NCBI GenBank assembly: GCA_000002445.1
Contig: CM000207.1
Span: forward strand, 608,001 to 672,000
Origin: Trypanosoma brucei
Lineage: Eukaryota
Direction: 5' to 3'
DNA length: 64,000 bases
Both the position numbers and the translations under genes were made by a program. Below the pieces are notes generated by a model that was not told the origin of the DNA, searched no databases, and saw only the letters and a list, made by a program, of their open reading frames with translations. Positions 25,251-53,595 of this stretch are shown piece after piece (position 1 is the stretch's first letter; each line of letters starts with the position of its first letter).

Positions 25251-25253
<3 letters not shown>

Positions 25254-25282
<29 letters not shown>
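25254..25282. repeat. (TA)n microsatellite
   Basis: aaaatatatatatatatatatatatatatatac, read directly from the sequence. Confidence 0.9.
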
Positions 25283-25286
<4 letters not shown>

Positions 25287-27313: not shown

Positions 27314-28293
27314 CTAAAACAATAGATCGTTCTATTATCTCTTCAACTTATCTGCTCGTTTGAATTGGGCGATCAAAAAAATACAGAAGATGTTTAGAAC
27401 GGTAAAAATAGGGGTTTACAAAAAAAAATCTCATCGGGAACAGGAAAATGATTTTAAACCAAAGAAAACTCTCGCCTTAACCCTCAATATTTTTATTAGT
27501 CGTTAAAAGGTCAAACGGCATTTTCGGTACCTAAATATTCCATGTAAGTAGATAGACAAGAGCCACCGTGCGATACTGACACCGCCTCAAACCATAAATA
27601 AAGCGGCGAGGGAAAACAACCCGACAATAGATGATGGGACCGACAGAAGACATATTTCGGGAACATATTGTTCCATCCAATTGAGGGGGAACAAGCAACG
27701 AAAGCGTTTTGATTAAATCCTATCTCTGCTTAAGTGTTACCTTACATTGACAACAAGTTCTTCTTTGTATCAACGACCACAGCACCAATAGTGAAACAGG
27801 AAGCGCAGATGCTTTCTATTATGTTCAAATATGTATATATATACATATATATACATATATACATGTAGTTATTGACAGTGTTTTCCAATAGTGTTGATAA
27901 GTGTGCTCTCGACTTTGAAACAATAATTTCACTCAACCGAAAACTACGAGAAATCAACGTAGTGTCGTATCACTAACAAAAAACTTAAGGTGAAAAAGTG
28001 CAAGAATAGTGCTAACGCACAGGAAAATCTGAGTGGAGCATTAGAATAATTCCACCATCAACAAACTGAGCATTACTACCCCCAAGACGTTCTTGGTTGA
28101 AATTTACACTCCGAAAAAAATCGTCAATTATGCATCAACTCTTTCCTCACAAAGTACGGTACCTTCAAGGCAACGCGACGTTGAAAGTTAATAAAGCTCA
28201 TGGAACCCATACATCAACCACATGTGCATAAAGCAAAAACATCTTTTTCCTTCAAAACAAGAAATTAGGCCACAAAACTTAAAGATCATTCAA

Positions 28294-28304
28294 CCCCCCC
28301 CCCC
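28294..28304 (-). repeat. G11 homopolymer on the minus strand (C11 on plus) at the minus-cluster edge of the strand-switch region
   Basis: caaccccccccccctcag, followed by G7 at 28328-28334. Read directly. Confidence 0.85.
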
Positions 28305-31300
28305 TCAGTCAGGAGCTCAACACCACAGGGGGGGTACTCATCTCCCACATCATCGATGTTACGATTACCCTCTAAATAAATCCACATAATGTGGCAAAAA
28401 AAACCCTTCTACATAGACTAGAAACGTAAGCAGGTAACGGGAAACAATACTAAGAACATCCTTTGTAAGGAAAAGGAAAACGCAAACATCCCATAGACAA
28501 GAGCCAGGAATCACTGCGTATTTATTAGCATCCCGTGGGCACCCACAAACTGTACGCCGCAAGCAGTAAATTCCACATAATTAAGGTCAAAGTAATGTCA
28601 CTGTAGCGTCAGCTGCACCTTGCTTACCCTTTTAGGTGCCGCCAATAAGCATACCACTTGGACTACCAGACGATGAAAAGTTAGGTGCCCGCCGGCAAAC
28701 CAATACCAAAAATTAATAACAGTAATGATAACTTTCATAAGGGTGGGACCATGTTGTAGGTATGGACGGCATGCCCCACATGGCAACAAGTGAATATACA
28801 CCAACGCCAAATACCAAATGCACAACCTCAAGTTATCATCAAAGAAAAATATTAATATGGGCGGGAAATGACCAGCCTGACATGGGTTGCACTGGCCAGA
28901 GCGCCTCACCAACCAGTCAAAAGGCATATGGCGGGGGCAAGACACTTTCTATCTGTTACTACCCGAATATGCTCACAAAAGCAATGACATCACACAGAGC
29001 CACACTCTCTCTCTCTCGCCCTCCTTGTCTCGGTTGAAGGAGAAGCGTAGCGGGCCGTACCACCTTAGCCGTTCCACGAATCACCTAAGCCAATCCATCA
29101 CAGCATTCAACTCCACACAACATGTAACTCCGGTTCAGATTATACGTACGCAACCCCACCCCAACCCGCTCATCACATAAATTTAAAATATTGCGGTGCA
29201 TCCTCGCCTCGGTTTCTCGAACAAAAACAAGCAACATCCGCAAAAACTAAACAAAGTAGAGGGACCAAATATGAAAAGGCATAGAATGCGTCGACCCTCA
29301 GCAGCCGTCTCGAAACTGTTGGTGCCGCACCACACACCACAACAACTGCAGCAACAACAACCGCATTCGCTACCCATGGGATAAGAGGGGGGAAATGAGC
29401 AGGTGGGAGCGTGTTCAGGAAATTCTCCACGGCGAGGTAGCCCCTGAGTAGCGACAACCCGAAGCAGAAAGACTTGGGAAGGGGTGGTCGAGCCACAGCA
29501 GTGGCAACCAATCGACGCGCACCGCCAGCATACGCCAGACGGGGAAAGGACTCCCACGCCACCCCGCATTACAAGCAGCGCCGCCACCACAGCGCCGCAG
29601 AAAATAAGGTAAAGTCAGGGGGGAAAACACTCCAACCAGCAACGCGGTACAAATTCCCATACCTTTACCCATGCAGGAGTCGCCAACGTGCCTCAACCCC
29701 CAATACCCCTCGTCAGGAATAGATTGAAATGGAAGAGTATGAAAATAATCTGTCGCGTGACGTCCAACAGTAGCGTTACGGTTCAAGAATGGACACCAGA
29801 ACCCCCTACCACGCAGTTGTGCCAAACACCCAACAAAAAACACAGTCCGGACGAAGTCACCTCGCACCGGCCATATGGAGGTGAGTCCCAGGCCTGCCCC
29901 GCCCAGCACTAAGCACAATGCTGCCCATCTCTCTTATACAGAACGAACAAGGTCAAAAAATGTGCAAACTGCGAAAAAAGCCATCTTCTCTACACCGAAA
30001 GGGCAAATTTCAACCGGTGGAAGAAAAACGACCCCATCCACCCCTCACAAGAGCACCGGCTGCCGGCTGTGACTCAAAGAGAAAAGGAATGCCCATCCTC
30101 TTTCTTGAACACACGGCGATAGTACTTACGTTGCGGCGTTTCGCCGCAAAAAACTTATCCGCACGTCACAGCACACAGCGCAGTTTCCCCGTCCCACATT
30201 CACATCCGGCCGCTTCCCTGCGCCCCAAAAAGGTTATCGCGGGACGACCGGACGACACCTACCCCTTGGTGTGCGCTAAGCCCGTCCCCTCAGTTGACGA
30301 CAGAGATTCTGCACTTTATTGGCGCGCGTTTGGTATCTGCAACGACAAAAAACGTGGTGGGGAACCCCCACCGCAATATTCATCAAAAAAAAAAAAAGCT
30401 GGCGTTGTACGCGACACAACTTGCTAATGGAACTACCCTGTTGCAAACCGAGTGCCACGGGCCACTAAGGACAATGAACGCCACACAACGTTATTTACTG
30501 TTTTGGTGTGTGCCGCAACTCCGAAGAGCCACCAATTTCACTGCAAATATCCTTAAGAGAATCATATCCGTGGAAACACGATAACTTGGGGAAGCCGAAA
30601 CTCATCACACAGGAGAAACTTGGAAATACTAAGGACTAGAGAAATACCCACAGCCATACCGACGCACAGCTGCAACAGTCATTCATGATGGACCGCCCGC
30701 CGCAGCCCGGTGGGTAGAACAATATCGGGGACCCTTGTTCCGTGACAATGGGGTTGGCCAAAATGGAGAATGAGACGGATGCTTCCGCAAGTAATATTGA
30801 GCGGAAACGCCATGCAGCACAGAGGCGAACGTCTTTATATGGCGGTGCTCGACTCCAACGGTGTCAAGAGAAACGTTACAAAATGAGTATATCCAATAAA
30901 AACGGCCTGAAACGTCAGCGGCCGAGTTTAGTACAGTGCTTCCAGGCAGCGACCGCCGGATTTGGAAACAGAACAACGAGGCAACACCATTCCACGCACC
31001 AGTTAGTGATGGCCTGCGCCACGATGCCATCAAAACGCTACAAACACGTACTGCGGGTATACCGAAGGGTAAAAACACTACTGGAATAAGATAATGGAAA
31101 AGGGTTAGTTCCTGTTGAAAACGAACAGCATAAATTCGTGCTAAGACTCTTGAGAACCCCCAGTAGTTCCTAATTCCCAACCCTTCTTGACGACAAACTT
31201 GGTGTGAGAATCACATCGCACCGAGGGAGAAGATGGGCAATTACTCCATAACTCCGAATATATCTGAAGGGTTAAATCCTGTCCCATCTCCTTCCCCGCC

Positions 31301-33599
31301 CGACACTGACCATTTCAAAGGTGATAGAAAGAGAAAACTGTGAGAACATATGGCGACAGGTGAAACGGTGAAAGTCCAAGCGGGGGTTTAGCCACGCCAT
31401 CCTCTTTATTGTTTGTTCCAAATCACCTCAAACAGCGAGCTAAATGAGGGGTGCGCAACAAATTCGCAAACATGGTGCATCAAGCTCACCTACTCTCTAC
31501 ACCGCCTTCTTTCCAACAGATCAAGTGGCAGCAGCTCAATTGGACGAATCTCCCCGACTCCAACAAGTATAGTTTAACAAAGGTTAAACAAAAAGCACAA
31601 TCCCAAAACTCTGCTGTTACTAGCCGCAACTGCTTTCTTTCCCAACCTACGTCCCCTACTGCGGAACTAAATCACCAAAATAGTTTCCTCCCTAACACCC
31701 AAGCGATAAGGAGCAAGGCTGCTAATGAATATGCGCCACGGAATGAGCGCCGCACCTACGAATAGGACACGTAAACACATTGGTAGACTCAAAAAAAAAA
31801 AAAGAGGCATATATAGTCCAGAAAATCCTTTCGAGCTACTGCGACCCTGACAAGCTCCGACAACCACGTCAAAGCAAAACTATATTCCTCTCGTCACCTA
31901 TTGACAATCCGAGGTTTGTAGCGTTCTGTTCACATCAGGAAAAAGAATATGGTCCTGCACTATTCAAAACGAAAAAGAGAAGGCTACTACCGACAAGGCT
32001 CCTCAGATTGAGAACTCCTTTCTCGACAGTGTGGGATTCAATAGCCCGAGCACTGCGTGCACCCCGACTCGGAGCGGCAGGGAAACGATCATGCAGGGAA
32101 TCGAGCACCGCCACATTTTCCCTCATTTTTTTGGAAGAATGCGGTGGGGTCACGACGGCAAGTAACCAACATGATCACAGGCGTGACGGGTGGAGAGAGC
32201 GGGGAAGATGCGGTTGAGTTGGCTCAGCTGATCATCGTTAGGGGTGTAGTTTGCAAGAGGGGAGTGGAATGTTACCTGAAATGGGAAGCCGTCGATTAAA
32301 CATTCAGTGAAGTCATAAGAAAAGCCGGACCTTCTGGACTACCCTATGCATAATGAGTTGGATGCTGCCAAGTGTTAGTGTAACAAAGTGGGGAAGACTT
32401 ACCGCAAAAGGAAAGCTTGGTGTGGATCGTTTTCGGGGTTGCAAGCACGGCCCTATCCCTCGAGTGGGCTGAGGGAAGATGCGCCGTGCGAAGAGAAAAA
32501 TAGAGGTGTCCGTTGCCATCCACCACCAAACCTGAACAGAAGGTTCTGCTGAATTGGATATGCCGAGCGGTGGAGAAACTTTCATATTTGATAAGGCAGA
32601 AAGACGGCTGAGTTACGCAGAAGGATCGGTAAGCTGCCACGTGACTTCCGAGGGGGGAGGGCTGCAATGAAGATTGTGCTTGAAAGGCCTCTAAGAGAAA
32701 CGGCATACAAGGCAAAGGGTGGGGTCCGGGTTAGAGACGTTCAACAAATTCGAACCGTCCCTCTTTTCTTTAAAGGCGGAACCAACACGTATAAAAGGTT
32801 ACGTCCTTCGCCCTATATGGAGAAGGGATCGGTGCAGCTCGTTAGGAATATGCCCCTATAAGTGCATTATGTTTTCTATTGCTCTAATTTTTATTGAAAC
32901 TAATTACCCGGCTACGGGGGCGGGTCTACAACCGGAACACCCTCCGTGCGGCACTAATACCGTGATATAGTTGTCGATTCAAAAGGCATCAGCGGTGAAT
33001 ACTTCAATTTTAACGCAGCAGTTTGAGGGCCGTCACGCACGGTATCAACGCTTTCTCTCATACCCCTTCTGCTAGGAAAGATATGGAAGCGGCGCGGAGA
33101 CAAGAGAAATTTCCCGCTTGGTTTTTCTTCTGGCGCAACGAAACGGTTCGGATGATATCTAGGATGGCTGAGCAACTGCATCAACCGAATGAGAGACGCG
33201 GTTGGTGCAGAATAGAGCAAATAATGAGGAGTCGCCGCCCCCTACACACACACACACATAATGTGAAGTTTAGTCGGAACAGCTCATACCTCGCGTGGTG
33301 GATAAACGTTTGGCGCCCAGTGATACGCCCGGGCAGTGATGCGGTATCGTTCCAGCGATTAACGTGGGTTGCTCATGCGACGGGGAAAAAAATCTGTAGA
33401 AAGGGTTGGACAAGGAACGAGTTGGAAAAACGCCTCAGAACGCGATGGGAATGTCGGGGATTGTGCATATCCTTTGTATGCGCGTGACTGTCCAGGACGC
33501 CCAAACACCCGAGAGTGCGCGCCATCAAACACAGAGGGGCGCTGCTATCCGAAACGAGCGACACCCAATGCGTGCACGTGTGGTTGTGTGGGAGAGCGC

Positions 33600-33615
33600 G
33601 GGGGGGGGGGGGGGG
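33600..33615 (+). repeat. G16 homopolymer
   Basis: gcgcgggggggggggggggggagtgg, read directly. It lies about 770 bp upstream of the first plus-strand gene. Confidence 0.85.
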
Positions 33616-33795
33616 AGTGGTGGGCTCGATGGCTGAAAGATACGGCTAATACGATGGTGCCCGATGTCTGCGGTGTCTGAAAACGCGTTTTATAGCAGTC
33701 CAACCAGGGGTGTGTATGGCGCACAAGGATTGAGGAGGAGAGTCAGCAGTAGGAACGCAATCGCAGGTAATGGCAGGAGGGGGTGCGTGTGTGTT

Positions 33796-33808
33796 GGGGG
33801 GGGGGGGG
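33796..33808 (+). repeat. G13 homopolymer
   Basis: gtgttgggggggggggggcagtg, read directly. Confidence 0.85.
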
Positions 33809-34260
33809 CAGTGCGGTGGTGATGTATTGCCGAGGTCGGTGCATTTTATGCCGGTGCTGGCAGTTGTTAGTGAATAAGAACGCTGGGACATAGTTCTGTG
33901 GGCCTTATTCGGTAGGGTACAGTCTTTTTTTCTTGTTGTCATGCCTATGTGTGGGGAAGTGGGGATGCGGGTCAGCACCGTGGTTTATGTGACTCTTGTT
34001 GCTGTGCCCTCGCTCGTTGATGCATTTCACCATCAGCTTTACAGATGTGTGCGCTTCTTACGTTAATGGATGCTGACGTCGGCATTTTTTTTTTTGATGC
34101 TATTGATGGGTTTGGTAAAGTGTTACCTGGAGATTGTAGAAACTTGCGGGCGGTCAGGTGTAATTTTTTTAAATCGGTCCCTTCCATGTGAAATGACTAA
34201 GTGTTGTGTTCACTACTGGCAAGGTATGATTTCCTGGACTCAACTTTAACGTTTAGAATG

Positions 34261-34290
34261 GTTTGTCATTTTTTTCCTCGTTTTTTTGTA
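34261..34290 (+). promoter_or_regulatory. polypyrimidine tract; candidate trans-splicing signal upstream of the first plus-strand gene
   Basis: tttttttcctcgtttttttgtacaactgcc, with AG dinucleotides downstream before the ATG at 34371. Inferred from general trypanosomatid mRNA processing. Confidence 0.4.
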
Positions 34291-34370
34291 CAACTGCCTC
34301 TGATTATTGTTGTGAGTTTTTCTTCAATTATATTTTGTCCTACGCTTTGGGCACTTTCCGGCCTTAAGAT

Positions 34371-42509: not shown

Positions 42510-43271
42510 ATGCCGACCGGTGCCGCCAGGCTGAATTTCCTTCAGATAAAGGAGCAGCAGCAGCTGAACCGCGAACGCCTCCGAGAAGCAGCAGTAGAGG
42601 AACAGCGTGCCAAGGAGGCTCTGTGTCGCCAGAAGGAGCAGTACAGCCACGTGCAGTCCCATGGGTATGGGCGAGTTGTCGGTAAACCCGCCAGCGACGT
42701 GCAGATAAAAGTGTATATACGCGAGTGCGATGGTGAAAGGGCGCAATGTCATACTTTTATGGAGAGTGAAGCTATGAGACACAATGCTAGCTGCAAGCAA
42801 GAAGGGAAGCCAAGGCCTGCACAACCTCCTAGGCAAAAGGTGCAGAAGCTGCCCCCCGTTGCTGCGCCGCCACAAAAGAAACAGGAGCACACTCAACAGC
42901 AACAACAGCGGTTGTCAGGCCCAGCCAATGCATCCGACACCCAACGGGGAATCGTGCCAAAATACTTACTGCAGCGGAAGGCTGAGCTGGCAGCACAGAA
43001 GGAGGCCACGCAACGTGAAGCAGAACGACAGAGGGAAATAGCCAGATATCCCCCGGGGCATCGTCTCGTAAGCGAGGAAGAAAGGAAGGAAACACTTGAA
43101 AAGCTTGCCGCTAGGCGACGCGAGTTGGAAATGGAACTTCACAAAATTCCCATCCGCTATGATACACAATCAATCAAGGAAAGGAGGTCGAAGATAGAAA
43201 ACGAGCTGAGTGAAATTGAGGCTGCGGAGCGAAAGTTTGGTTCAGCAAAGGAGCTCTTCGTTCCCATATAG
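42510..43271 (+). CDS. enkurin-domain protein (ciliary/flagellar)
   Basis: True ATG. The C-terminal approx 100 aa (IVPKYLLQRKAELAAQKE...YPPGHRLVSEEERKETLEKLAARRRELEMELHKIPIRYDTQSIKERRSKIENELSEIEAAERKF) follow the enkurin domain pattern (IPKYL..RK.E...E...P.G...L.E.ER.E.L..L...L...L..LP...DT...K.RK..LE..L.EIE.AI). Confidence 0.6.
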   Translation: MPTGAARLNFLQIKEQQQLNRERLREAAVEEQRAKEALCRQKEQYSHVQSHGYGRVVGKPASDVQIKVYIRECDGERAQCHTFMESEAMRHNASCKQEGKPRPAQPPRQKVQKLPPVAAPPQKKQEHTQQQQQRLSGPANASDTQRGIVPKYLLQRKAELAAQKEATQREAERQREIARYPPGHRLVSEEERKETLEKLAARRRELEMELHKIPIRYDTQSIKERRSKIENELSEIEAAERKFGSAKELFVPI

Positions 43272-45125: not shown

Positions 45126-48100
45126 ATGGCCACATCTCTTGTGCAGTTGTATTGCTACGACCTCAGCGGAGGGATGGCGGAGTCCATGAGCCTCATGTTG
45201 ATTGGGCGCCATTTGGAAGCAATATGGCACACTGGAATTGTTGTGTATGGAAAGGAGTACTATTTTGACGGCGGGGTTGGCATTGTTCACTCCTCACCCG
45301 GTGGATCTCACTTTGGCACGCCAAAACGGGTAGAAACACTCGGTACAACAACGAAAGGCGAAGGCGAGTTTCTTGAATGGGTTAAGCAGCGAAGGCTTGA
45401 TACATTTGGCCCAACACACTACAATCTCCTTAACCGAAATTGTAACCACTTCACGCAAGCGGCAGCGCAGTTTCTCGTAGAGCGTGACATTCCTAGTGAA
45501 ATCCGCGATATGATTCCCACTGTGCTGGATACTCCCCTTGGCCGCATGCTTAAACCCATGCTGGAAATGGCCACCAGAGGCTTGGAAGCATCCGCAAAGA
45601 CATCACAACTTTCTACTTCACCGCGGAAGAAAGTATCAAACACCACTGAAACGCCCACTGTGAGTGATTCCTCTACCTCCCTCGACGTTGCAACTGGCCT
45701 GAACTCGGAGAAATCTCATCTCTCAGTGGAGGAGCATGAAGAAGTAATGCTTGTCCGTGCGATGCTGCAGAGTAATGAATTGCTCTCGTCAGGGACGCGG
45801 GAAGGCTTTAACACGACGATGGGAGCACTTATCCTGCTTCGGATGGTCATAACAAATATCCTGAGGAATCCAACTCAACTCAAGTACAGGACGCTTTCTA
45901 CTCAAGATAAGGAGTATAAGTCGAAAATAGCACCTCTGGAAGAGTTTGGTGCAGCCGATATACTGCGTCTCTGTGGGTTCCGTCTGTTGCAGCACCCGAC
46001 GTTGAATCAAGCTGTGTGGTTCCTGAGTGATGCGGACGGCAGTGAAGATGTTCTGGCCATAATGGTGACCCACATCACCGAGTTGATTGAGTTGGTGGAA
46101 AGTGAGTATCAATCAGAGTTTTGCGCAGTAGAGGGAGATCCAAATATAGGGACTTTCCATAAAGAAAAATACCCAGTTCCCCCCCTTACGTCAAACGCGA
46201 GTGATCCAGGGGACAGGGCAATGGAGGTCATAATGCACGACGCTGTGAAACCTATCTCTTCGCTTGAAGACTTGATGAATTGGTCCCCTACATCACCTGG
46301 AGCAATTACCCCAGCAGCGCCGTGTCGCCGCCGCGTGCAGGCCAGTGTGGAAGATGGTCCGAGGCTTTTAATTTGCCATGACATGAAGGGTGGTTATCTT
46401 CCAACTGACTACGAGCACTTCGCTGTCTGTAATAGACTGATGAAGGGTGCATCAGCTCTCGTCCCGTCGGTGGTGAATTGTAGCTATACGGTGAGTTACT
46501 GGCATCATGTGGACTACTTTGTTTACTTTTCGCACAACTTCGTTACGGTTCCCCCAAAGGAGTGGATCAGCTACGCCCACCGCGAGGGGGTTCCAGCCCT
46601 TGGAACGTTTATTACCGAAGGCGAAAGCTTAACTCTTCGCAAGATTCTACATGATGCCCAAAGTTCGGCGTCCACCATTAGGAAGTTGGTGGATTTATGT
46701 GATGCACACAACTTTGATGGATACCTTATGAATATCGAAACAAATTTAGATGAAACCCTTGCAAAGCGCTTGATAACGTTCGTGGCTACGTTAAAGAAAT
46801 CCCTCAACAAATCGCGACCGCCTAACTCTGGGGAGCGCTTTGTATTCTGGTACGATGCTGTCACTGTGGAGGGAATCGTTTCGTATCAGAACGGTCTAAC
46901 GTCCAAGAATAAGCCCTTTTTTGATGTCTGCAACGGCTTGTTCACAAACTATGGCTGGAGACCGTACAGTCTCCCTTTATCCACTGCGATTGCGGGGCAA
47001 AGAAATCGCGATGTGTTTGTTGGTGTTGACATATTTGGCCGTGGTGTCTACGGAGGCGGAGGATACGATAGCCATAAAGCTGCAGACTGTGCATCTGGTG
47101 CAAAGCTTTCCATTGCCATTTTCGCGCCTGGTTGGACTTCTGAATGCGTAGGAAATGGCTGTCGCGAAAATTTTCAGCGTAACGACGCGCACATGTGGAG
47201 TAAAATGCAGGATATATGGACTACCAAGTATCTTGAGTTGGACACTTTGCCGGTATGGACGTGCTTCCTTGACGAAGTTGGAACACAATTCTTCGTGAAT
47301 GGAGCTCCCGTTTTGGGTTGCGTTTCCAATCAAAATAGCCTTGGAAGCGGTGTAAAGTGCAGTAATGATGACACTGATTTTTTTTTCCCTGAGTGGTGCC
47401 AAATTTCACAGACACACATAAAGCCTTGTTACAAGCTGGTGCGCGGTGGGGCGGAGGGGGATCCATGGTGTGTGCTGCCGTTCGAAGTGGTGGGTAAAGA
47501 TGGGTGCCACACCAATAAAGATGGACAGACTGTGCCCCTCGATTGGTCGACAAAACAGGTGTGGATGGGTAACCGTAGCATGAGCTTCGCCGCTCCGCCA
47601 AACGCTACCGTTCCACTTATGCGATGGAAGGTACGTCTTGAAGTCGGAGCAGCTGACGGTGAGAAGACGTCCGACGCGCTGGCGTTCCTTGACATTGCCT
47701 GGTTGTGTAACGCCGTAGATGCGCAAGCGCACTCCGTGCGCTGCGTGTGTGTCGAGGGTGTAAATGGCTCTTCCACGACACGGGTCGTGTTTGACGAGCA
47801 GCTTGCATCCCCAGAGAGAATAATTGTCGTAGCAACTGTGGGAAATTGGCAGATTGTTCGTTACGTAATTCCGGACAACGTTACATGGACGCACGTCACT
47901 TGTTTGTCGATACTAAACCCCTCTGAGAATGAATCACTTGTTTGCACTGTGGGTGGCGTTGCCCTGACTGAGCCGACATACGATAATTCCACCAGTGTGT
48001 TGCTTTTGGGGGATGCACAAATCTTGCCCTCAACTTCGTATACGGTGGACAAAACATCAGACCCAACCACATGCGTAGTCACACTTGACGTGCCGAATGA

Positions 48101-48281
48101 ACTGAGAAAAAAATCAAACAAGGTCATTCTGTTCGCGAAAATTGGGTTTCCGGGTGGAAAACTTCTGAGTGCGTACTTGGGAACGCATGAGATATCGAAG
48201 CAAATTCTGTTACCGTTGAATATACCGTCTGATGCTTTTGTTTACGAAATGTTCTTCTATGGATCAGCTTCTGGAAACTAA
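45126..48281 (+). CDS. three-domain protein: N-terminal PPPDE/DeSI papain-fold peptidase, central PUB (p97-binding) domain, C-terminal GH85 endo-beta-N-acetylglucosaminidase (ENGase)
   Basis: The first ATG is at 45126; the track start at 45105 is GTG. PPPDE: catalytic His context WHTGIVVYGKEYYFDGG and catalytic Cys in YNLLNRNCNHFTQ. PUB: NPTQLKYRTLSTQDKEYKSKIAPLEEFGAADILRLCGF. GH85: LICHDMKGGY and the catalytic N-x-E in DGYLMNIETN (compare human ENGase DGWLINIEN). Confidence 0.8.
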   Translation: MATSLVQLYCYDLSGGMAESMSLMLIGRHLEAIWHTGIVVYGKEYYFDGGVGIVHSSPGGSHFGTPKRVETLGTTTKGEGEFLEWVKQRRLDTFGPTHYNLLNRNCNHFTQAAAQFLVERDIPSEIRDMIPTVLDTPLGRMLKPMLEMATRGLEASAKTSQLSTSPRKKVSNTTETPTVSDSSTSLDVATGLNSEKSHLSVEEHEEVMLVRAMLQSNELLSSGTREGFNTTMGALILLRMVITNILRNPTQLKYRTLSTQDKEYKSKIAPLEEFGAADILRLCGFRLLQHPTLNQAVWFLSDADGSEDVLAIMVTHITELIELVESEYQSEFCAVEGDPNIGTFHKEKYPVPPLTSNASDPGDRAMEVIMHDAVKPISSLEDLMNWSPTSPGAITPAAPCRRRVQASVEDGPRLLICHDMKGGYLPTDYEHFAVCNRLMKGASALVPSVVNCSYTVSYWHHVDYFVYFSHNFVTVPPKEWISYAHREGVPALGTFITEGESLTLRKILHDAQSSASTIRKLVDLCDAHNFDGYLMNIETNLDETLAKRLITFVATLKKSLNKSRPPNSGERFVFWYDAVTVEGIVSYQNGLTSKNKPFFDVCNGLFTNYGWRPYSLPLSTAIAGQRNRDVFVGVDIFGRGVYGGGGYDSHKAADCASGAKLSIAIFAPGWTSECVGNGCRENFQRNDAHMWSKMQDIWTTKYLELDTLPVWTCFLDEVGTQFFVNGAPVLGCVSNQNSLGSGVKCSNDDTDFFFPEWCQISQTHIKPCYKLVRGGAEGDPWCVLPFEVVGKDGCHTNKDGQTVPLDWSTKQVWMGNRSMSFAAPPNATVPLMRWKVRLEVGAADGEKTSDALAFLDIAWLCNAVDAQAHSVRCVCVEGVNGSSTTRVVFDEQLASPERIIVVATVGNWQIVRYVIPDNVTWTHVTCLSILNPSENESLVCTVGGVALTEPTYDNSTSVLLLGDAQILPSTSYTVDKTSDPTTCVVTLDVPNELRKKSNKVILFAKIGFPGGKLLSAYLGTHEISKQILLPLNIPSDAFVYEMFFYGSASGN

Positions 48282-49530
48282 AAGGAGCTCGTCCGAAGGT
48301 GAAAAGTTGAAGATACAAATTGACTTGTGCAGGCACCCTTTTTAATTTCTGTTCCCCTCATTCCAATGCAGGTTTCTTTTTACCACATTAATTCTACTTA
48401 TCGCTTCTTTCTTGCTGCTTGAGAGCTTGTAACCTCACTGGGCGTCATGACACTGTTACCATGCAACGGAGGGTGGTAAAAATGTTTCACAGCCTTTTTC
48501 TTTCTGTGTCAACCTTTTTTCTCTGGTTTCTTCGGAGTAAACGTCAACGGCTTGTACGCAGAGAGTCACGACTTGCACGGGATTTCTTTTTGGCGTACTG
48601 TCCACGGAAAGTTTCGTGTGGTTGGAAGGGTGAGTAAACCGTGTCGTGGCGGTTTTGCTCCAACTCTTTTCTCTTCATTCTTAGTAGCTTGCTGCTTACT
48701 CCGCTGTATGTTGCGCATCCGCCGAACAGCCTTCAGCTTCCTTGGAGGGTTTGCGATCGCTGACTTCTACGTAAATTGCACGAATCTTGATGATATACAA
48801 AACGAACTGGGTGTGCAGGGCGTTGAGCGTGTTGCGAGTCCCAATTATTTTTCTTGGATATTCCGTTCCACACCTGTGAAACCGCAACAACCCGCATTTG
48901 GCTCGACGCTGCGTGAAGACGTCGAGTTGCTGTTCCAGAAGTCTCCCCTCTCCGGAGCGGCCCTGGTTTTCACAGCGGTGTCACTTGGAGGCATTTGGTC
49001 ATTGCTTGGTTCCTGCGCGGCTGTTGTGCTTGATGGGGATGAGGGTAGCGAGCGCTACGATGCTCTGAAGCGTTGGCTGAATGGATAGGCTCGCCGTTAG
49101 TGAAGACGGTGTACTCTGGTGCCTGTGTTTGTGGTGACAATTCGCTGTTTCTAAAGCTACGAAACGAACTGGCTTGTTTGGTGGGTGTGGTATCTGCTAT
49201 TGTTCTTTGTGAATACGTGTTTGTCAATTACAAAATTTGGGTTTGGTGGTAGCTATGGAGTGGTAAATTATAATGGCGGTATTAATGGCAGCAGTGAAGT
49301 TGAAAATAACCTTGATGCGTTCTATTCCCTTCGTGTTTTCCCCATTTATTTGACTACCTCGCTCCTTTAATCAACGCTTTGTGCAGAGAAGCCGCACAAC
49401 GGTCTTCTAGGAAGTTGAAGTGCCTCCGTGTGCATTAAACAGTGGAGCCGGTAGAGGGGAGTAATACCGGGAGCACCTGTAGTTCCATTTGTTGTTGGTA
49501 TCTGGGCGGGTGCTGTCTCCGTCCCTGTCT

Positions 49531-50487
49531 ATGGCAATCGTCGGGGACTCGTTAAATAAGAGGCGCAACTACACCGTCTGCGGTCTTGTTAGCAACCCGT
49601 TGTTCCAGAAGTGCGCGGAGGTCGCTCAGTATGTGGCAGAAGAGTACAGTGATGAATTTTATGTAGATATATTCCGTGAGATGCCTTGCGAGTTCTACAG
49701 TCGTAGAGAGCAGCTGTTAAACAGTAAGAAGATAGAGGACGGTGGAATGGAGGTCATCGTCCTTGTGGGCGCCGATGGGCACACCGGCCCCACCAACGGA
49801 GAGGGCGAGGCAATGTCCGGGGATGACTTCCTGAACATGATGCAGAAGGCAACTTGCTTTCGAGTTCTTAACATCCCACCCGAGAGACCTGACTCTTACG
49901 AAAATATGGCGCATCTTTCGTGGAAGAATTACCTTCGGGAGCGGGGGAACACTTACTGCTGGATGGAAATAAGCATTGGTGAGATGGTCCACGGGCGCGT
50001 TACGTTTGAACTTTACTCGCGCGTAGTGCCCCACACCTGCAGCAACTTCTGGCACCTCTGTAAGGGCGACCTGAGTCGGGATGCGGACGAGGGAGAAGAG
50101 CAGGTGCCAATACTAAGCTACAAAAATTCAACCTTCTTCCGCACTTTGCATGGAGCGTGGGTGATGGGCGGTGACATCAGTGGAGGGAATGGTCGGGGTG
50201 GATATTCCATTTACGGTCGTTACTTCCCGAATGAGTCTTATGCCATTCCCCACGATAGGGTTGGGGTGCTTGGAATGTGCAATGACGGCGGAGACACCAA
50301 CGCATCTTCTTTTTACATCACAATGAAGGCCATGCAATGGATGAACGGCCGCTACGTGGCGTTTGGCCGTGTGGTCGACGGCTTGGAAGTCGTACATGCT
50401 ATCCACGCAGTAGATGTAAAACACAATCAGTGTCCGAAAAAGGTGATAACCATAAGTGACTGCGGTGTGATTGACCTTACAGAGTGA
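49531..50487 (+). CDS. cyclophilin-type peptidyl-prolyl cis-trans isomerase with a ~160-aa N-terminal extension
   Basis: The cyclophilin domain includes GRVTFELYSRVVPHTCSNFWHLCKG, FFRTLHGAWVMGGDISGGNGRGGYSIYG, FYITMKAMQWMNGRYVAFGRVVDGLEVV and KHNQCPKKVITISDCG. The first ATG is at 49531; the track start at 49489 is TTG. Confidence 0.85.
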   Translation: MAIVGDSLNKRRNYTVCGLVSNPLFQKCAEVAQYVAEEYSDEFYVDIFREMPCEFYSRREQLLNSKKIEDGGMEVIVLVGADGHTGPTNGEGEAMSGDDFLNMMQKATCFRVLNIPPERPDSYENMAHLSWKNYLRERGNTYCWMEISIGEMVHGRVTFELYSRVVPHTCSNFWHLCKGDLSRDADEGEEQVPILSYKNSTFFRTLHGAWVMGGDISGGNGRGGYSIYGRYFPNESYAIPHDRVGVLGMCNDGGDTNASSFYITMKAMQWMNGRYVAFGRVVDGLEVVHAIHAVDVKHNQCPKKVITISDCGVIDLTE

Positions 50488-51204
50488 TTAGAGGTGCTTT
50501 AGAAACTGTAGACGGGGAAAGTGAGATAGGGAAAAGATGGGAGTGTTGTTATGCGGAGAATTTCTTTGACAGCCTTCGTCCTGACCCGGCTTGCCAAGCT
50601 TTTCATTTTCTCATCTAATGTGCATGTCTTGGAAATCGCTCTCGGTTGGCGGCCCGTCCTTTCTAAACTTCTTCTTTTCACGTGCTTCAACCCCCCCTTT
50701 CTGTCCCTTCCTGGCTTCATGCTCACACAGGGTCGACGGCCCTCTTGTACATAAAGCGTCACGGGTGGAACTAATGTGTTTCTTTCTTTGAGCAGGTTTG
50801 TCAACTGTTGCGTCCCCTCTGGGAGGTGGAAACTGCAGAAAGCCATCAGAAGGAGAAGGGACAATGGACGAGAGTGCGGGGGGGGGGGAGAAATAAAAGT
50901 GTGTATGCGCAATGAGGCGGATAGAAGGACTGAAAAGGGATCCATTGGGGAAGGGGGCATCGTTTACTGTTTCCACGGAGTGATGTAAACCTCACAAGAT
51001 ACTTTGGGTCTTGTGTGTGGGAGCGTATGTATAAATAACTCGATTGGTGGCACATTCAGCAGGTCCACTACTATTAATCGCAGGGTGATTTATCCTGTTC
51101 ACACAACGCGCCCCTTACTCTCGTTCCCTTGCCTACCAACCCCATCTTTTCGTTTTTTTGCGTGTGCACCGCACGCGCGGAAGTCCTTCTTTTGCATTAC
51201 CGGG

Positions 51205-53595
51205 ATGGGAAGGAAGGATGACGCCATTAAAAAGTTAATATCGCTTAATTTTAGTAAAAGCAAGGCAACAGAAGCACTTAAGGAGGCTAATGGAGACTTT
51301 GACGTTGCCCTGAGAATTTTGCAGAACAAAAAAGTGAAAGAACAACAGGTTCCGGTGAAATCATTGGCAGAAAAGCCAAAGTTGAGCGGTAATGATGACC
51401 GCGTGGGTGACGGTGGTGAGGTGAAGCAAAGGAAACACCCGTGTATAGTGCAATACAAAAAATGCCAATATGGAAAGTTCTGTCGACTTCGTGACTACCC
51501 GGGTGATGTCTGCATCAACTACTTCAATGGTACTTGCTTGTATGGAAACTTCTGCAAGAGACGACACTATGTTGATGGAGTAGACATACGGGCCGACCAA
51601 CGTCCGGAGACAAGTAGTGGAATAGTTAAGCACCAGTCGGGCACCATCCGTATATCCAGGTCATGTGGCAATGGGGTGTTTGTTGGGGATGTGATACAGT
51701 GTGTTGACGAGGAATCGTCTTCCCAGCTTGCCGGTGCAACTCCTGAGCCATGCCGCTTTAATCTCATCCAGGGCTCGGAACCTACGTATACGGATCCCAG
51801 AGCTCTAGATTGGCAGTCGCGTGCTACTTCCGTCATCGGTACCACCCCAACTCCATTCTTGGATGCAGTAAGGCAAAATGCGCAGAAACAGGCTTTCGAA
51901 GAGGTCGCACCAACCTCTCCCGTCCCACTTTCAGTAACTTCTAGGGCTATCTCAAGGAATAAACACCCCTGTATAGCGCAGCGCGGTTGCTGTAAATACG
52001 GAAAGAACTGCCTTCATGCAGACAGGGACGCAGACGTTTGCGTGTTCTTTCTGAACGGAAGATGTGCGAGGGAAGGTTCCTGCAAGTACCGACATGAAAG
52101 CGATGCGGAATATTTGAGACGTGTTCGACCTGATTTATGGGGTGGAGGCTGCGATGACGCTAGCCAAGGCGGCGAGACGGTACCACTAACCGCCGAGAAG
52201 GTGTTGAAGGATGTGACAAGAGCGCGGTGGTGTCAAGCTGATGATGGGGAGGTTAAGGATGGGGAAAGATACCAACAAACCGGTGTTTCCCTCTCGGATT
52301 TTCTTCCGACCGCGCGTGTGGACGACGCACCCGAGGGCGGTACCCAGCGGGGGGAGCACGATGAAGATTCGATGGCACCTGACCAAAGCGGGGACAATGA
52401 GTTTGCCTCGCTTCTGAGTTTGATTGATGCGTTCCCAAGCGCCGAACCATATTTGTTGCTGCACGCCCTTCGCTGCGCTGACGGTAATCCCCATTACGCC
52501 GCCGACGTCATAAACCGAGTGAGTAATATTGATTCCACTGAGGATATCGATCTTTGCTTCCTAGCAAGCCGCTTGGAAGACGAGGATGAGGAGAGAGAGG
52601 CCGCAATCCGGGACAAACACGAGTGGTTTCTCACACTCTGCACGCTGTTTCCAGGCGTAGACACACCGTCGATTCAAGCGGTGTTGGATCGATGTGGAGG
52701 GGAATACGGAGAGGCCTACGACATTTTGCTTTGCCAAAGTGGTTCAGTAACAGCGAAGGCTTATGGGACCGCCTGGAGCGGTAAAGTTAAGGGAAGCGAA
52801 GAGGCTCGCGTGGAGAAGTTGTGCGGCATGTACCCGGGACTTCCCAAGGACGTGGTACAGAATGCCTTCGGGACTGCTGATGGCAATTTTCTCGTGGCAA
52901 GCGGTATATTGAATGATATGACCAAAGATATGTTGGTGGCGGGAGACGTTGTTGCTGATAGCCACCCCTGTCCGGCTCGCGGAAAGGTTGTTGTTACGAC
53001 GAAGCGAACGTCCGAAGAAGATGAACCGAAGAAGGTGTCGTTCCAGTTTCCGGTGAGCAGCCCATCACGCGAGGAAGTGGAGGCGTTTTACAACAGTGTG
53101 AAGAACGAGGTACGAGAGCTTGGTGATTGGCGACGGGTGCGAGAGCAGGCGTATATCATCAACAGTTGTCGTATCCGCGTGCTCAAGCACGCTGCAGCGG
53201 CATACCGACGTGGTGACGGCGAAGCCGCCAAGACTCTTAGTCGTCATGGGAAAGAACTTGGTGCCCAGTATCAGCGTCTCAACCGCATTGCGATGGTCGC
53301 ACTGGAGCGGGAGCGTCTGTATAGTAGCCCAGTCGTCACGCTTGACCTCCATGGCTTCCACGTTGAGGAGGCGATCGAGGTAGTGCGACGTCGTGTGAAG
53401 TTGTGCCAGCAGAAAGGTGTGAGGAACCTGCAAATTGTCACTGGCAGTGGCAAGCACAGCCGTGGCGGGAACTCTGCCCTTCACTCCGCAGTGCTGAAGC
53501 AGCTTCAGGAGGATACGCAACTAGACGGCATCGTTAAAATCGGGTCAATAAAACCTGCTTTTTTTGACGTTCAAATTGCACCGCGGCGTAAGTAA
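51205..53595 (+). CDS. UBA/CUE, tandem CCCH zinc-finger and Smr-domain protein (Cue2/N4BP2-like; candidate no-go-decay mRNA endonuclease)
   Basis: The first ATG is at 51205; the track start at 51004 is TTG. The N-terminal UBA is LISLNFSKSKATEALKEANGDFDVALRIL. There are two pairs of CCCH fingers (HPCIVQYKKCQYGKFCRLRDY...CINYFNGTCLYGNFCKRRH and HPCIAQRGCCKYGKNCLHADRD...CVFFLNGRCAREGSCKYRH). CUE-like segments include AEPYLLLHALRCADGNPHYAADVI and LFPGVDTPSIQAVLDRCGGEYGEAYDIL. The C-terminal Smr has TLDLHGFHVEEAIEVV and IVTGSGKHSRGG. Confidence 0.75.
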   Translation: MGRKDDAIKKLISLNFSKSKATEALKEANGDFDVALRILQNKKVKEQQVPVKSLAEKPKLSGNDDRVGDGGEVKQRKHPCIVQYKKCQYGKFCRLRDYPGDVCINYFNGTCLYGNFCKRRHYVDGVDIRADQRPETSSGIVKHQSGTIRISRSCGNGVFVGDVIQCVDEESSSQLAGATPEPCRFNLIQGSEPTYTDPRALDWQSRATSVIGTTPTPFLDAVRQNAQKQAFEEVAPTSPVPLSVTSRAISRNKHPCIAQRGCCKYGKNCLHADRDADVCVFFLNGRCAREGSCKYRHESDAEYLRRVRPDLWGGGCDDASQGGETVPLTAEKVLKDVTRARWCQADDGEVKDGERYQQTGVSLSDFLPTARVDDAPEGGTQRGEHDEDSMAPDQSGDNEFASLLSLIDAFPSAEPYLLLHALRCADGNPHYAADVINRVSNIDSTEDIDLCFLASRLEDEDEEREAAIRDKHEWFLTLCTLFPGVDTPSIQAVLDRCGGEYGEAYDILLCQSGSVTAKAYGTAWSGKVKGSEEARVEKLCGMYPGLPKDVVQNAFGTADGNFLVASGILNDMTKDMLVAGDVVADSHPCPARGKVVVTTKRTSEEDEPKKVSFQFPVSSPSREEVEAFYNSVKNEVRELGDWRRVREQAYIINSCRIRVLKHAAAAYRRGDGEAAKTLSRHGKELGAQYQRLNRIAMVALERERLYSSPVVTLDLHGFHVEEAIEVVRRRVKLCQQKGVRNLQIVTGSGKHSRGGNSALHSAVLKQLQEDTQLDGIVKIGSIKPAFFDVQIAPRRK

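What the first reader, a model, noticed from the sequence alone, without database searches (positions are those of the whole stretch)
45126..48281. PPPDE/DeSI peptidase fused to a PUB domain and a GH85 ENGase in one 1051-aa polypeptide
All three modules are recognisable and the catalytic residues of both enzymatic domains look intact: PPPDE His/Cys in WHTGIVVYG and NRNCNHF, and the GH85 N-x-E in YLMNIET. PUB domains recruit p97/VCP in ERAD and classically sit on PNGase rather than on ENGase. PPPDE/DeSI domains are deSUMOylating or deubiquitinating papain-fold peptidases. A single protein combining a ubiquitin-like-protein peptidase, a p97 adaptor module and a cytosolic N-glycan-trimming glycosidase would couple two ERAD clean-up activities. 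I do not know it as a described architecture.
Basis: partly seen in the sequence, partly recalled or inferred. Interest (0 to 1): 0.75.

Follow-up and report, generated by a model that had tools for sequence, protein, structure and literature searches.

The report
Trypanosome ENGase fused to PPPDE and PUB
This is the known Trypanosoma brucei gene for the cytosolic sugar-trimming enzyme ENGase (Tb927.9.3400); it really is fused to a ubiquitin-type peptidase domain and a PUB domain, a fusion shared by kinetoplastids and diplonemids that I found discussed in no paper, though the PUB domain has lost most of the residues that normally grip p97/VCP.

Summary
Window 45126-48281 (+) is one uninterrupted 1051-aa ORF with Pfam PPPDE/Peptidase_C97 (E=1.5e-31), PUB (2.8e-13) and GH85 (2.1e-78). 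The catalytic residues are conserved across 20 orthologues: PPPDE H35/Y99/C106 and GH85 Y576 in all 20, GH85 N536/E538 in 19. A confident AlphaFold model matches DeSI-1/2, PNGase-PUB and the whole of Endo-A.

The gene is not new. It is T. brucei Tb927.9.3400 (XP_803644.1), deposited as a putative ENGase. Tiengwe et al. 2018 named it TbENGase and proposed it as the ERAD deglycosylase, because T. brucei lacks PNGase. The passages I retrieved from that paper do not mention the extra domains, and no searchable paper pairs PPPDE with ENGase or GH85.

The fusion is found in Trypanosoma, Leishmaniinae, Bodo and Diplonema. Most non-Trypanosoma lineages add a DM9 lectin-family repeat. PPPDE+PUB also occurs without GH85, for example in Cryptosporidium.

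Only two of the five canonical p97-tail-binding PUB residues survive in T. brucei (V,N,Y,S,D instead of Y,N,Y,R,N), so VCP recruitment is not assured. PPPDE chemistry is also debated: deubiquitinase, deSUMOylase or depalmitoylase.

Verdict: a real, conserved, uncharacterised variant of cytosolic ENGase. The ERAD-coupling idea is plausible but untested. Interest is moderate.

The parts
45126..48281 (+). Complete coding sequence of T. brucei Tb927.9.3400 (TbENGase), 1051 aa plus stop codon
   Evidence: ORF, one stop; its 90%-identity cluster holds XP_803644.1 / Q38FI8; gene ID and name
45126..45575 (+). PPPDE / Peptidase_C97 (DeSI-type) domain, aa 1-150. Triad His35 (45228-45230), Tyr99 (45420-45422), Cys106 (45441-45443)
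   Evidence: Pfam E=1.5e-31; 3ebq/2wp7, E~1e-31; rmsd 1.3-1.5 A, TM 0.87-0.92 normalised to target; H35, Y99, C106 invariant in 20 orthologues; His-Tyr-Cys triad definition; most conserved module, 53-71% identity
45585..45686 (+). Disordered, poorly conserved linker 1, aa 154-187
   Evidence: pLDDT below 50; linker aa 151-200 is 11-24% identical
45738..45782 (+). Conserved acidic helix EEVMLVRAMLQSNEL (aa 205-219) that fits a UIM-like pattern (ExxΦxxAxxxS). Status uncertain
   Evidence: conserved in orthologues; helix 201-215, pLDDT about 90; pattern match; no Pfam UIM hit even at E up to 10
45798..46061 (+). PUB domain, aa 225-312. Pocket-equivalent residues V/N/Y/S/D lie within LILLRMVITNILRNPTQLKYRTLSTQDK (45828-45911)
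   Evidence: Pfam 50 bits, cut-off 34.3; profile hits PNGase-PUB 2ccq/2hpl and UBXD1-PUB, E~2e-7; 2ccq, TM 0.72 normalised to target; pocket comparison
46062..46325 (+). Linker 2, aa 313-400: long helix, then a disordered stretch (aa 333-358). This is the position where orthologues outside Trypanosoma carry a ~250-aa insert with a DM9 repeat
   Evidence: secondary structure and pLDDT; insert in alignment columns ~600-880; DM9 in Porcisia, Diplonema, Papus, P0087; no DM9 reported for the T. brucei protein at E up to 1
46326..47225 (+). GH85 catalytic TIM-barrel, aa 401-700. Asn536-Ile-Glu538 (46731-46739), Tyr576 (46851-46853)
   Evidence: E=2.1e-78; alignment to Endo-A N171/E173/Y205; N536/E538 in 19 of 20, Y576 invariant; Endo-A, Endo-D
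47226..48278 (+). C-terminal beta-sandwich region, aa 701-1051, corresponding to the non-catalytic C-terminal part of Endo-A-type ENGases
   Evidence: all-beta, high pLDDT; alignment to 2vtf spans ~740 columns, TM 0.68 normalised to target, so it covers more than the barrel; own CTD HMM also finds a weak match in two animal GH85 proteins

Best explanation
The ORF encodes the single cytosolic GH85 endo-beta-N-acetylglucosaminidase of Trypanosoma brucei (Tb927.9.3400, TbENGase). It consists of a complete Endo-A-like ENGase (TIM barrel plus a C-terminal beta-sandwich region) preceded by a DeSI-type PPPDE cysteine isopeptidase and a PUB domain.

[quoted passage not shown] On the same substrates, the N-terminal PPPDE domain removes ubiquitin (or a ubiquitin-like modifier). 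The PUB domain, possibly helped by an adjacent UIM-like helix, docks the enzyme onto the VCP/ubiquitin machinery at the ER.

Shown here: the continuous ORF, the three domains, the folds, the conserved catalytic residues, strong purifying selection on PPPDE, the absence of a signal peptide or TM segment, and the distribution of the fusion across kinetoplastids and diplonemids.

Inferred: both enzyme activities, the substrates, the localisation, and above all the VCP docking.
For: Domains and folds. Catalytic residues conserved in 20 orthologues: H35/Y99/C106 and Y576 invariant, N536/E538 in 19 of 20. PPPDE is the best-conserved module, at 53-71% identity against 42-64% for GH85, so it is not a decaying relic. 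No hydrophobic segment reaches the TM range and the N-terminus is the PPPDE domain itself, consistent with a cytosolic protein. The fusion is kept in Trypanosoma, Leishmaniinae, Bodo and Diplonema, with PPPDE+GH85 in Papus. Most non-Trypanosoma orthologues add a DM9 repeat, a family with high-mannose N-glycan lectins, which fits glycoprotein targeting. Tiengwe et al. 2018 report that T. brucei lacks PNGase, that ERAD substrates accumulate fully deglycosylated in the cytosol under MG132, that this gene is the proposed deglycosylase, and that ubiquitylated intermediates could not be detected, which the authors say could be due to deubiquitylation. C97 enzymes act as deubiquitinases or deSUMOylases, and DeSI1 is reported as a deubiquitylase for hydrophobic and TM proteins. 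PPPDE+PUB proteins elsewhere also carry UBL, UBA and STI1 domains. Leishmania VCP ends in DDLYS and binds other PUB proteins.
Against: The PUB pocket is degenerate. The first Tyr is never kept in the family. The R55 equivalent is Ser in 25 of 35 fusion proteins and the N58 equivalent is Ser, Asp or Thr in 33 of 35; T. brucei has Asp, and the same N-to-D change in UBXD1 costs 20-fold in affinity. No protein called acetylglucosaminidase, glycosyl hydrolase or PPPDE appears in the text-searchable supplements of the Leishmania VCP interactome study (one file was cut when stored), and that study lists only three other PUB proteins. PPPDE1/2 have weak peptidase but strong S-depalmitoylase activity on artificial substrates. 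No biochemical or genetic test of this protein was found. The absence of PNGase is taken from the literature and was not re-tested here.
Confidence: 0.5

Rival explanations
1. Same enzyme, but the PUB domain is not a VCP-tail binder. Like SPATA2-PUB, it has a remodelled pocket and binds a different partner or motif, possibly an internal PIM-like motif of another protein, or it regulates the neighbouring PPPDE domain. Any link to ERAD would then not run through direct VCP C-terminus docking.
For: Only 2 of 5 canonical pocket residues are kept. SPATA2-PUB has Val at the first Tyr, binds no PIM and instead binds the USP domain of the deubiquitinase CYLD. UBXD1 N201D weakens binding 20-fold. No protein named as an ENGase, glycosyl hydrolase or PPPDE appears in the searchable supplements of the Leishmania VCP pull-downs. 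Diplonema keeps a more canonical pocket (I,N,Y,R,N), which suggests a later shift in kinetoplastids.
Against: N41 and K50/Y51 equivalents are retained in most members. The kinetoplastid VCP tail is itself slightly different (DDLYS rather than DDLYG), so co-variation is possible. The pocket residues of the Leishmania PUB proteins that do bind VCP were not examined here. The Leishmania orthologue may be listed only as a hypothetical protein in the pull-down tables.
Confidence: 0.3
2. The PPPDE domain is not a ubiquitin or SUMO isopeptidase but a thioesterase or amidase of another kind, for example an S-depalmitoylase. It would strip lipid or other acyl modifications from substrates that the ENGase half deglycosylates, or act independently.
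For: PPPDE1 and PPPDE2 showed high palmitoyl-thioesterase activity on two artificial substrates and only weak peptidase activity. The C97 family sits among NlpC/P60-like amidases and lipid-metabolising enzymes.
Against: The substrates in that study were artificial, and the authors could not assess physiological relevance. PPPDE is repeatedly fused to ubiquitin-system modules (PUB, UBL, UBA, PUL, thioredoxin). A 2026 preprint reports deubiquitylase activity for DeSI1.
Confidence: 0.15
3. The ENGase half works mainly in housekeeping breakdown of free oligosaccharides (converting fOS-GlcNAc2 to fOS-GlcNAc1 in the cytosol), as in mammals, not on glycoproteins. Some other activity deglycosylates ERAD substrates, and the PPPDE-PUB cassette serves a separate function that happens to be fused.
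For: Free-oligosaccharide trimming is the canonical role of cytosolic ENGase in mammals (abstract of PMC2909182). Tiengwe et al. note that the enzyme would need a broader specificity than EndoH to remove both Man9- and Man5-type glycans.
Against: No PNGase is reported in T. brucei, yet ERAD substrates become fully deglycosylated. A fusion to ubiquitin-system domains kept across kinetoplastids and diplonemids, with a lectin-family domain in most non-Trypanosoma lineages, argues for protein-linked substrates.
Confidence: 0.15
4. Artefact: two or three adjacent genes are read as one because of a sequencing or assembly error.
For: None found. The T. congolense model (P0003) lacks most of PPPDE, which could superficially suggest separate genes.
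Against: There is a single ORF without stops. Full-length fusions with PPPDE, PUB and GH85 in the same order occur in 35 proteins of my set, from independent genome assemblies and, for Diplonema, a transcriptome. P0003 still retains the last 21 PPPDE residues at its N-terminus, so it is a truncated model. The whole-chain model has pTM 0.71.
Confidence: 0.01

Closest known systems
Cytosolic GH85 ENGase (human ENGASE; bacterial Endo-A / Endo-D as structural references)
   Same: GH85 Pfam domain, the N-x-E plus Tyr catalytic residues, and an overall Endo-A-like fold covering TIM barrel and beta-sandwich region. Deposited and cited as the T. brucei ENGase.
   Different: It carries about 400 extra N-terminal residues with PPPDE and PUB domains. 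None of the animal GH85 proteins returned by the search has these (P0025-P0035 have GH85 with or without PF25529). It is proposed to act in a cell without PNGase.
Cytosolic PNGase / NGLY1 with its N-terminal PUB domain
   Same: A de-N-glycosylating enzyme fused to a PUB domain; the closest PDB sequence match to this PUB domain is PNGase-PUB. The presumed pathway is the same: ERAD substrate clean-up before the proteasome.
   Different: The catalytic domain and chemistry are different: a GH85 glycosidase leaving Asn-GlcNAc, against a transglutaminase-fold amidase converting Asn to Asp. The PUB pocket lacks Y38, R55 and N58 equivalents. An additional PPPDE domain is present.
DeSI-1 / DeSI-2 (PPPDE2 / PPPDE1), MEROPS family C97
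   Same: 42% identity in the Foldseek alignment, rmsd 1.3-1.5 A, and an invariant His-Tyr-Cys triad.
   Different: The mammalian proteins are small stand-alone domains. Here the domain heads a 1051-aa multidomain enzyme. Substrate class is unknown in both cases to some degree: deubiquitinase, deSUMOylase or depalmitoylase.
PPPDE+PUB proteins of other protists (e.g. Cryptosporidium 'PPPDE peptidase/PUB domain containing protein', 393 aa)
   Same: The same two-domain cassette in the same order, with a similarly non-canonical first pocket residue (I,N,Y,K,S at the five pocket positions).
   Different: No GH85 or DM9. Some carry UBA, UBL or STI1 domains instead.
p97/VCP-associated deubiquitinases (OTU1/YOD1 type)
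   Same: The concept of a cysteine isopeptidase docked to the VCP machinery. Leishmania OTU1 co-purifies with VCP.
   Different: Different protease fold and a different VCP-binding module. That OTU1/YOD1 docks through a UBX-like domain is my own background knowledge and was not checked here. VCP association of the present protein is unproven.

Membership tests
Glycoside hydrolase family 85 (ENGase) | Significant match to the GH85 profile | tested here: met
   PF03644, E=2.1e-78, 264 bits (cut-off 22.2). Endo-A E=7e-20.
Glycoside hydrolase family 85 (ENGase) | Catalytic Asn-x-Glu and the downstream Tyr (Endo-A N171, E173, Y205) | tested here: met
   The alignment places N536, E538 and Y576 opposite them; conserved in 19, 19 and 20 of 20 orthologues respectively.
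Glycoside hydrolase family 85 (ENGase) | TIM barrel followed by a C-terminal beta-sandwich region, as in Endo-A | tested here: met
   TM 0.68 normalised to 2vtf over about 740 alignment columns.
Glycoside hydrolase family 85 (ENGase) | [quoted passage not shown] | not testable with these tools
   No biochemical data found.
Peptidase family C97 (PPPDE / DeSI) | Significant match to the PPPDE profile and the permuted papain fold | tested here: met
   PF05903, E=1.5e-31; 2wp7 rmsd 1.3 A, 3ebq rmsd 1.5 A.
Peptidase family C97 (PPPDE / DeSI) | His-Tyr-Cys catalytic centre (PPPDE1 H38, Y101, C108) | tested here: met
   H35, Y99 and C106 are invariant in 20 orthologues. The triad definition is from PMC9012467. 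H35 and C106 align with the DeSI residues.
Peptidase family C97 (PPPDE / DeSI) | Isopeptidase activity on ubiquitin or SUMO conjugates | not testable with these tools
   Activity is disputed even for the mammalian enzymes.
PUB domain (p97/VCP C-terminus binders) | Significant match to the PUB profile and PUB fold | tested here: met
   PF09409, 50 bits (cut-off 34.3). PNGase-PUB E=1.7e-7; 2ccq TM 0.72 normalised to target.
PUB domain (p97/VCP C-terminus binders) | PIM-binding pocket YxxN(x)9Y plus R55 and N58 (PNGase numbering; PMC6995525) | tested here: not met
   T. brucei has V,N,Y,S,D. Among 35 fusion proteins the first Tyr is kept in none, the R55 equivalent is R or K in 6, and the N58 equivalent is N in 2.
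PUB domain (p97/VCP C-terminus binders) | Physical binding to the VCP C-terminal tail | not testable with these tools
No protein named as an ENGase, glycosyl hydrolase or PPPDE appears in the searchable Leishmania VCP pull-down supplements, which is inconclusive.
Ubiquitin-interacting motif (UIM) | Match to the UIM profile or consensus (acidic-Φ-x-x-A-x-x-x-S-x-x-acidic) on an exposed helix | tested here: inconclusive
   The consensus pattern is present and conserved at aa 205-219 and the stretch is helical. There is no Pfam UIM hit for 7 orthologues at E up to 10. The high pLDDT suggests the helix may pack against the PUB domain.
DM9 repeat (mannose / high-mannose lectin family) | Match to PF11901 between PUB and GH85 | tested here: not met
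   Not reported for the T. brucei protein, and the corresponding insert is absent from all Trypanosoma rows. Present in Porcisia, Diplonema, Papus and P0087.

The most novel reading that the evidence does not exclude
In kinetoplastids and diplonemids, at least some of which lack PNGase, ENGase took over the role of the ERAD deglycosylase by capturing a pre-existing PPPDE-PUB cassette, together with a DM9 high-mannose lectin-family module in most non-Trypanosoma lineages. The result would be one polypeptide that recognises, deubiquitylates and de-N-glycosylates retrotranslocated glycoproteins. That would be a convergent counterpart of the metazoan PUB-PNGase. The built-in deubiquitinase would explain why ubiquitylated ERAD intermediates could not be detected in T. 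brucei. The remodelled PUB pocket would then indicate either co-evolution with the kinetoplastid VCP tail (DDLYS) or a new docking partner.
Probability: 0.3. Interest if true: 0.7.

Novelty: new variant of a known kind. Interest (0 to 1): 0.5.

Why it matters
Trypanosomes degrade misfolded glycoproteins, including GPI-anchored ones, by ERAD although they have no PNGase. This gene is the only proposed deglycosylase (PMC6233060).

If its PPPDE and PUB modules are active, deglycosylation, removal of ubiquitin or a ubiquitin-like modifier, and docking to the extraction machinery would sit in one enzyme. That would give a direct, testable explanation for two puzzles in that paper: the undetectable ubiquitylation of ERAD intermediates, and the need for a broad glycan specificity.

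It would also offer a natural experiment on what happens when cells rely on ENGase alone, producing Asn-GlcNAc proteins. In the mammalian literature, loss of Engase partly rescues the lethality of Ngly1-knockout mice (PMC5398483, title).

It would provide a physiological context for the poorly understood PPPDE/DeSI family. It would also provide a case of a PUB domain whose p97-binding pocket has drifted.

The protein has no human counterpart with this architecture.

Tried and rejected
- Mis-joined genes or a frameshift: rejected. The ORF is continuous and the fusion recurs in many independent assemblies.
- UIM between PPPDE and PUB: the pattern fits by eye and by regular expression, but Pfam gives no hit for seven orthologues. 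Left as uncertain.
- Looking for the orthologue in the Leishmania VCP interactome: no protein called acetylglucosaminidase, glycosyl hydrolase or PPPDE appears in the text-searchable supplements. This is inconclusive, because one file was cut when stored and the orthologue may be listed as a hypothetical protein. LiPUB1-3 have chromosome 9, 11 and 36 gene IDs; I did not establish whether any of them is the orthologue.
- Reading Iyer, Koonin & Aravind 2004, which defined PPPDE and may mention fusions: the paper is not held.
- Inter-domain geometry and the PUB pocket in the AlphaFold model: coordinates are not exposed, so they could not be analysed.
- Modelling a PUB-VCP tail complex: not possible with the tool restrictions.
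- Independent test for absence of PNGase in kinetoplastids: judged impractical with the capped homology searches, so the claim rests on PMC6233060.
- Genomic neighbours (enkurin-domain, cyclophilin, GNAT, pseudouridine synthase and Smr proteins): no functional link, as expected for trypanosome polycistronic units.
- tRNA scan of the window: nothing found.


Full report
**Observation.** Window 45126-48281 (+) is a single ORF of 1051 codons with one terminal stop. The mechanical ORF begins at a GTG at 45105, but the first ATG is 45126, and orthologues begin at the same Met. A pyrimidine-rich stretch lies just upstream. Pfam finds Peptidase_C97/PPPDE (aa 6-146, E=1.5e-31), PUB (aa 229-302, E=2.8e-13) and Glyco_hydro_85 (aa 453-699, E=2.1e-78), all well above the curated cut-offs.

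**Identity.** The protein's 90%-identity cluster holds T. brucei brucei TREU927 XP_803644.1 / Q38FI8 and the T. b. gambiense and T. equiperdum proteins, all 1051 aa and all deposited as 'endo-beta-N-acetylglucosaminidase, putative'. A TB9Cs1 snoRNA cluster elsewhere in the window fits T. brucei chromosome 9. Tiengwe et al. 2018 (PMC6233060) list this gene as TbENGase, Tb927.9.3400. [quoted passage not shown] They show that ERAD reporters accumulate fully deglycosylated in the cytosol under MG132, and they propose this ENGase as the deglycosylase. They also report that they could not detect ubiquitylation of the intermediate, possibly because of deubiquitylation. In the passages retrieved, that paper does not mention PPPDE or PUB domains. 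It is the only searchable paper containing the gene ID. No searchable paper pairs PPPDE with ENGase, GH85 or endo-beta-N-acetylglucosaminidase, and none follows up the trypanosome ENGase.

**Anatomy.** An AlphaFold2 model built on 43 sequences is confident (mean pLDDT 88, pTM 0.71). The only low-confidence segments are aa 154-187, 333-358 and a loop at 734-745. Foldseek against the PDB gave these matches (TM scores normalised to the target):

| Region | Best PDB match | Fit |
|---|---|---|
| aa ~400-1051 | Endo-A (2vtf, 3fha, 3fhq) | TM 0.68 over ~740 alignment columns |
| PPPDE | DeSI-1 (2wp7) | rmsd 1.3 A, TM 0.87, 42% identity |
| PPPDE | DeSI-2 (3ebq) | rmsd 1.5 A, TM 0.92, 42% identity |
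| PUB | PNGase-PUB (2ccq) | TM 0.72 |

The Endo-A match covers the TIM barrel plus the C-terminal beta-sandwich region. The HMMER alignment to Endo-A places query N536, E538 and Y576 opposite N171, E173 and Y205. H35 and C106 align with the DeSI catalytic His and Cys. Y99 completes the His-Tyr-Cys centre described for PPPDE1.

**Conservation.** In an alignment of 20 orthologues, H35, Y99, C106 and Y576 are invariant. N536 and E538 are present in 19 of 20; the exception, P0024, has D..Q and also lacks a PUB domain. PPPDE is the most conserved module: 53-71% identity to the nine orthologues compared, against 42-64% for GH85, 28-56% for the helix-plus-PUB region and 11-24% for linker 1. No 19-residue window reaches TM-like hydropathy (maximum 1.44), and the N-terminus runs directly into the PPPDE fold, so the protein is most likely cytosolic.

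**Distribution.** A word-indexed search and an exhaustive HMMER scan with aa 1-310, classified with HMMs from my own alignments, found 35 proteins with PPPDE+PUB+GH85 plus the C-terminal region. A few more have PPPDE+GH85 with the PUB domain undetected. Named sources are many Trypanosoma species, Leishmaniinae (Porcisia, Novymonas, Leishmania), Bodo saltans, the prokinetoplastid Papus ankaliazontas (PPPDE+DM9+GH85) and Diplonema japonicum. The fusion therefore most likely predates the kinetoplastid-diplonemid split. The T. congolense entry is an N-terminally truncated model, not a separate gene, because it retains the last 21 PPPDE residues.

Outside Trypanosoma, most orthologues carry a ~250-aa insert between PUB and GH85. 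In four proteins scanned directly (Porcisia, Diplonema, Papus, P0087), and in three further Leishmaniinae-type proteins by precomputed Pfam, the fusion includes a Pfam DM9 repeat. That family includes lectins specific for mannose and high-mannose N-glycans. Pfam reported no DM9 for the T. brucei protein, and the insert is absent from all Trypanosoma sequences.

The PPPDE+PUB cassette also exists without GH85. It occurs in 14 mostly short proteins (285-623 aa) and, in reverse order, in 4 others. Examples are the Cryptosporidium 'PPPDE peptidase/PUB domain containing protein' and a protein that adds UBL, STI1 and UBA domains. Other PPPDE proteins are fused to PF08324, which I recall from memory as the PUL domain, and to thioredoxin (PF00085).

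**The PUB caveat.** The UBXD1-PUB study (PMC6995525) defines the p97-tail pocket as YxxN(x)9Y plus R55 and N58 in PNGase numbering. The second Asn hydrogen-bonds the C-terminal carboxylate. UBXD1 N201A and N201D raise KD 5-fold and 20-fold respectively. Mutating PNGase R55 abolishes binding. [quoted passage not shown]

A profile of this family aligned to PNGase-PUB and UBXD1-PUB, and an HMM-guided alignment of all PUB hits, give V,N,Y,S,D for T. brucei. Among the 35 fusion proteins the first Tyr is never kept, the R55 equivalent is Ser in 25, and the N58 equivalent is Ser, Asp or Thr in 33. Diplonema (I,N,Y,R,N) and P0067 (V,N,Y,K,N) are closer to canonical.

So the domain is a PUB by sequence and fold, but the feature that defines p97-tail binding is not met. 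Leishmania VCP ends in DDLYS and binds other PUB proteins (LiPUB1, LiPUB2). That study lists three PUB proteins, and no protein named as an ENGase, glycosyl hydrolase or PPPDE appears in its searchable supplements. This is inconclusive, because the orthologue may be listed as a hypothetical protein.

**A possible fourth element.** A conserved acidic helix (aa 205-219, EEVMLVRAMLQSNEL; ETLQLALAMLESSI in Bodo-like sequences) fits the UIM pattern and is modelled as a confident helix. Pfam's UIM model does not hit it, and it may simply be the first helix of an extended PUB domain.

**Mechanism.** The best-supported reading is a cytosolic ENGase that de-N-glycosylates retrotranslocated ERAD substrates in a PNGase-less cell. 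The strongly constrained PPPDE domain would remove ubiquitin or a ubiquitin-like modifier from the same clients. The PUB region would provide docking to the VCP/ubiquitin machinery.

- Shown: architecture, folds, catalytic residues, selective constraint, lack of targeting signals, and phylogenetic persistence.
- Inferred: both activities, the substrates, the localisation and the docking.
- Literature support for the PPPDE part: C97 enzymes are summarised as deubiquitinases or deSUMOylases, and DeSI1 is reported as a deubiquitylase for hydrophobic and transmembrane proteins (preprint).
- Literature against: PPPDE1/2 show weak peptidase but strong S-depalmitoylase activity on artificial substrates.

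Rival readings are: a SPATA2-like, non-VCP role for the PUB domain; a non-ubiquitin chemistry for PPPDE; a mainly free-oligosaccharide role for the GH85 half; and an assembly artefact, which is rejected.

**Comparison and novelty.** The protein is a member of GH85 and of peptidase family C97 by every feature testable here. It is a PUB-fold protein that fails the pocket test. It works like a combination of cytosolic ENGase and PUB-PNGase with a VCP-associated deubiquitinase, but that is analogy, not demonstration. The gene and its ENGase annotation are known, and the domain combination is visible in precomputed Pfam annotations. What I could not find in any searchable paper is a description or test of the fusion. 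I therefore rate it a new variant of a known kind, of moderate interest. It is a clear, cheap-to-test hypothesis for trypanosome ERAD rather than a surprise at the level of a new system.

Noticed in passing
window 7779-8619 (-): Two tandem copies of the trypanosomatid H/ACA snoRNA cluster TB9Cs1 (H2, H1, H3), all at or above Rfam gathering scores. The second H3 copy only just passes (35.5 against 35 bits).
   Followed up: no
window ~24650-34370: An ORF-poor, more AT-rich stretch (GC 0.41-0.43 at 24-28 kb). Genes on the left are on the - strand and genes on the right are on the + strand, and GC skew changes sign near 32 kb. This looks like a divergent strand-switch region between polycistronic units. 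No tRNA or Rfam hit lies in it.
   Followed up: partly
window 51004-53595 (+): An 863-aa ORF with DUF1771 and Smr domains and a weak UBA-like match. From memory this resembles the Cue2 / N4BP2-type architecture. It lies two genes downstream of the ENGase.
   Followed up: no
P0012 aa 519-559; P0057 aa 328-428; P0070 aa 322-384; P0087 aa 362-396: Orthologues in Porcisia (Leishmaniinae), Diplonema, Papus and an unnamed lineage carry a DM9 repeat (PF11901, a family with mannose / high-mannose lectins) between the PPPDE/PUB region and GH85 (PUB was not detected in Papus P0070). Precomputed Pfam lists it for three more Leishmaniinae-type proteins. Trypanosoma lacks the whole insert.
   Followed up: partly
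P0024 / P0049 (unnamed NCBI/JGI contig, 10.7 kb): A divergent lineage has PPPDE+GH85 but no detectable PUB domain. The GH85 N-x-E is replaced by D-x-Q while the PPPDE triad is intact. This may be a glycosidase-dead relative.
   Followed up: no
P0003 (T. congolense, 917 aa): The deposited protein model starts inside the PPPDE domain and keeps only its last 21 residues. This is probably an annotation or assembly truncation rather than a real domain loss.
   Followed up: no
P0088 (623 aa, unnamed); P0096 (Cryptosporidium, 393 aa): PPPDE+PUB proteins outside Euglenozoa combine the cassette with UBL, STI1 and UBA domains (P0088) or a weak UBA match (P0096). This points to a recurrent link between this cassette and ubiquitin-system domains.
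   Followed up: partly
window 42510-43271 (+) and 49489-50487 (+): The immediate neighbours are an enkurin-domain protein upstream and a cyclophilin-type PPIase with a long N-terminal extension downstream. Neither has an evident functional link to the ENGase.
   Followed up: no
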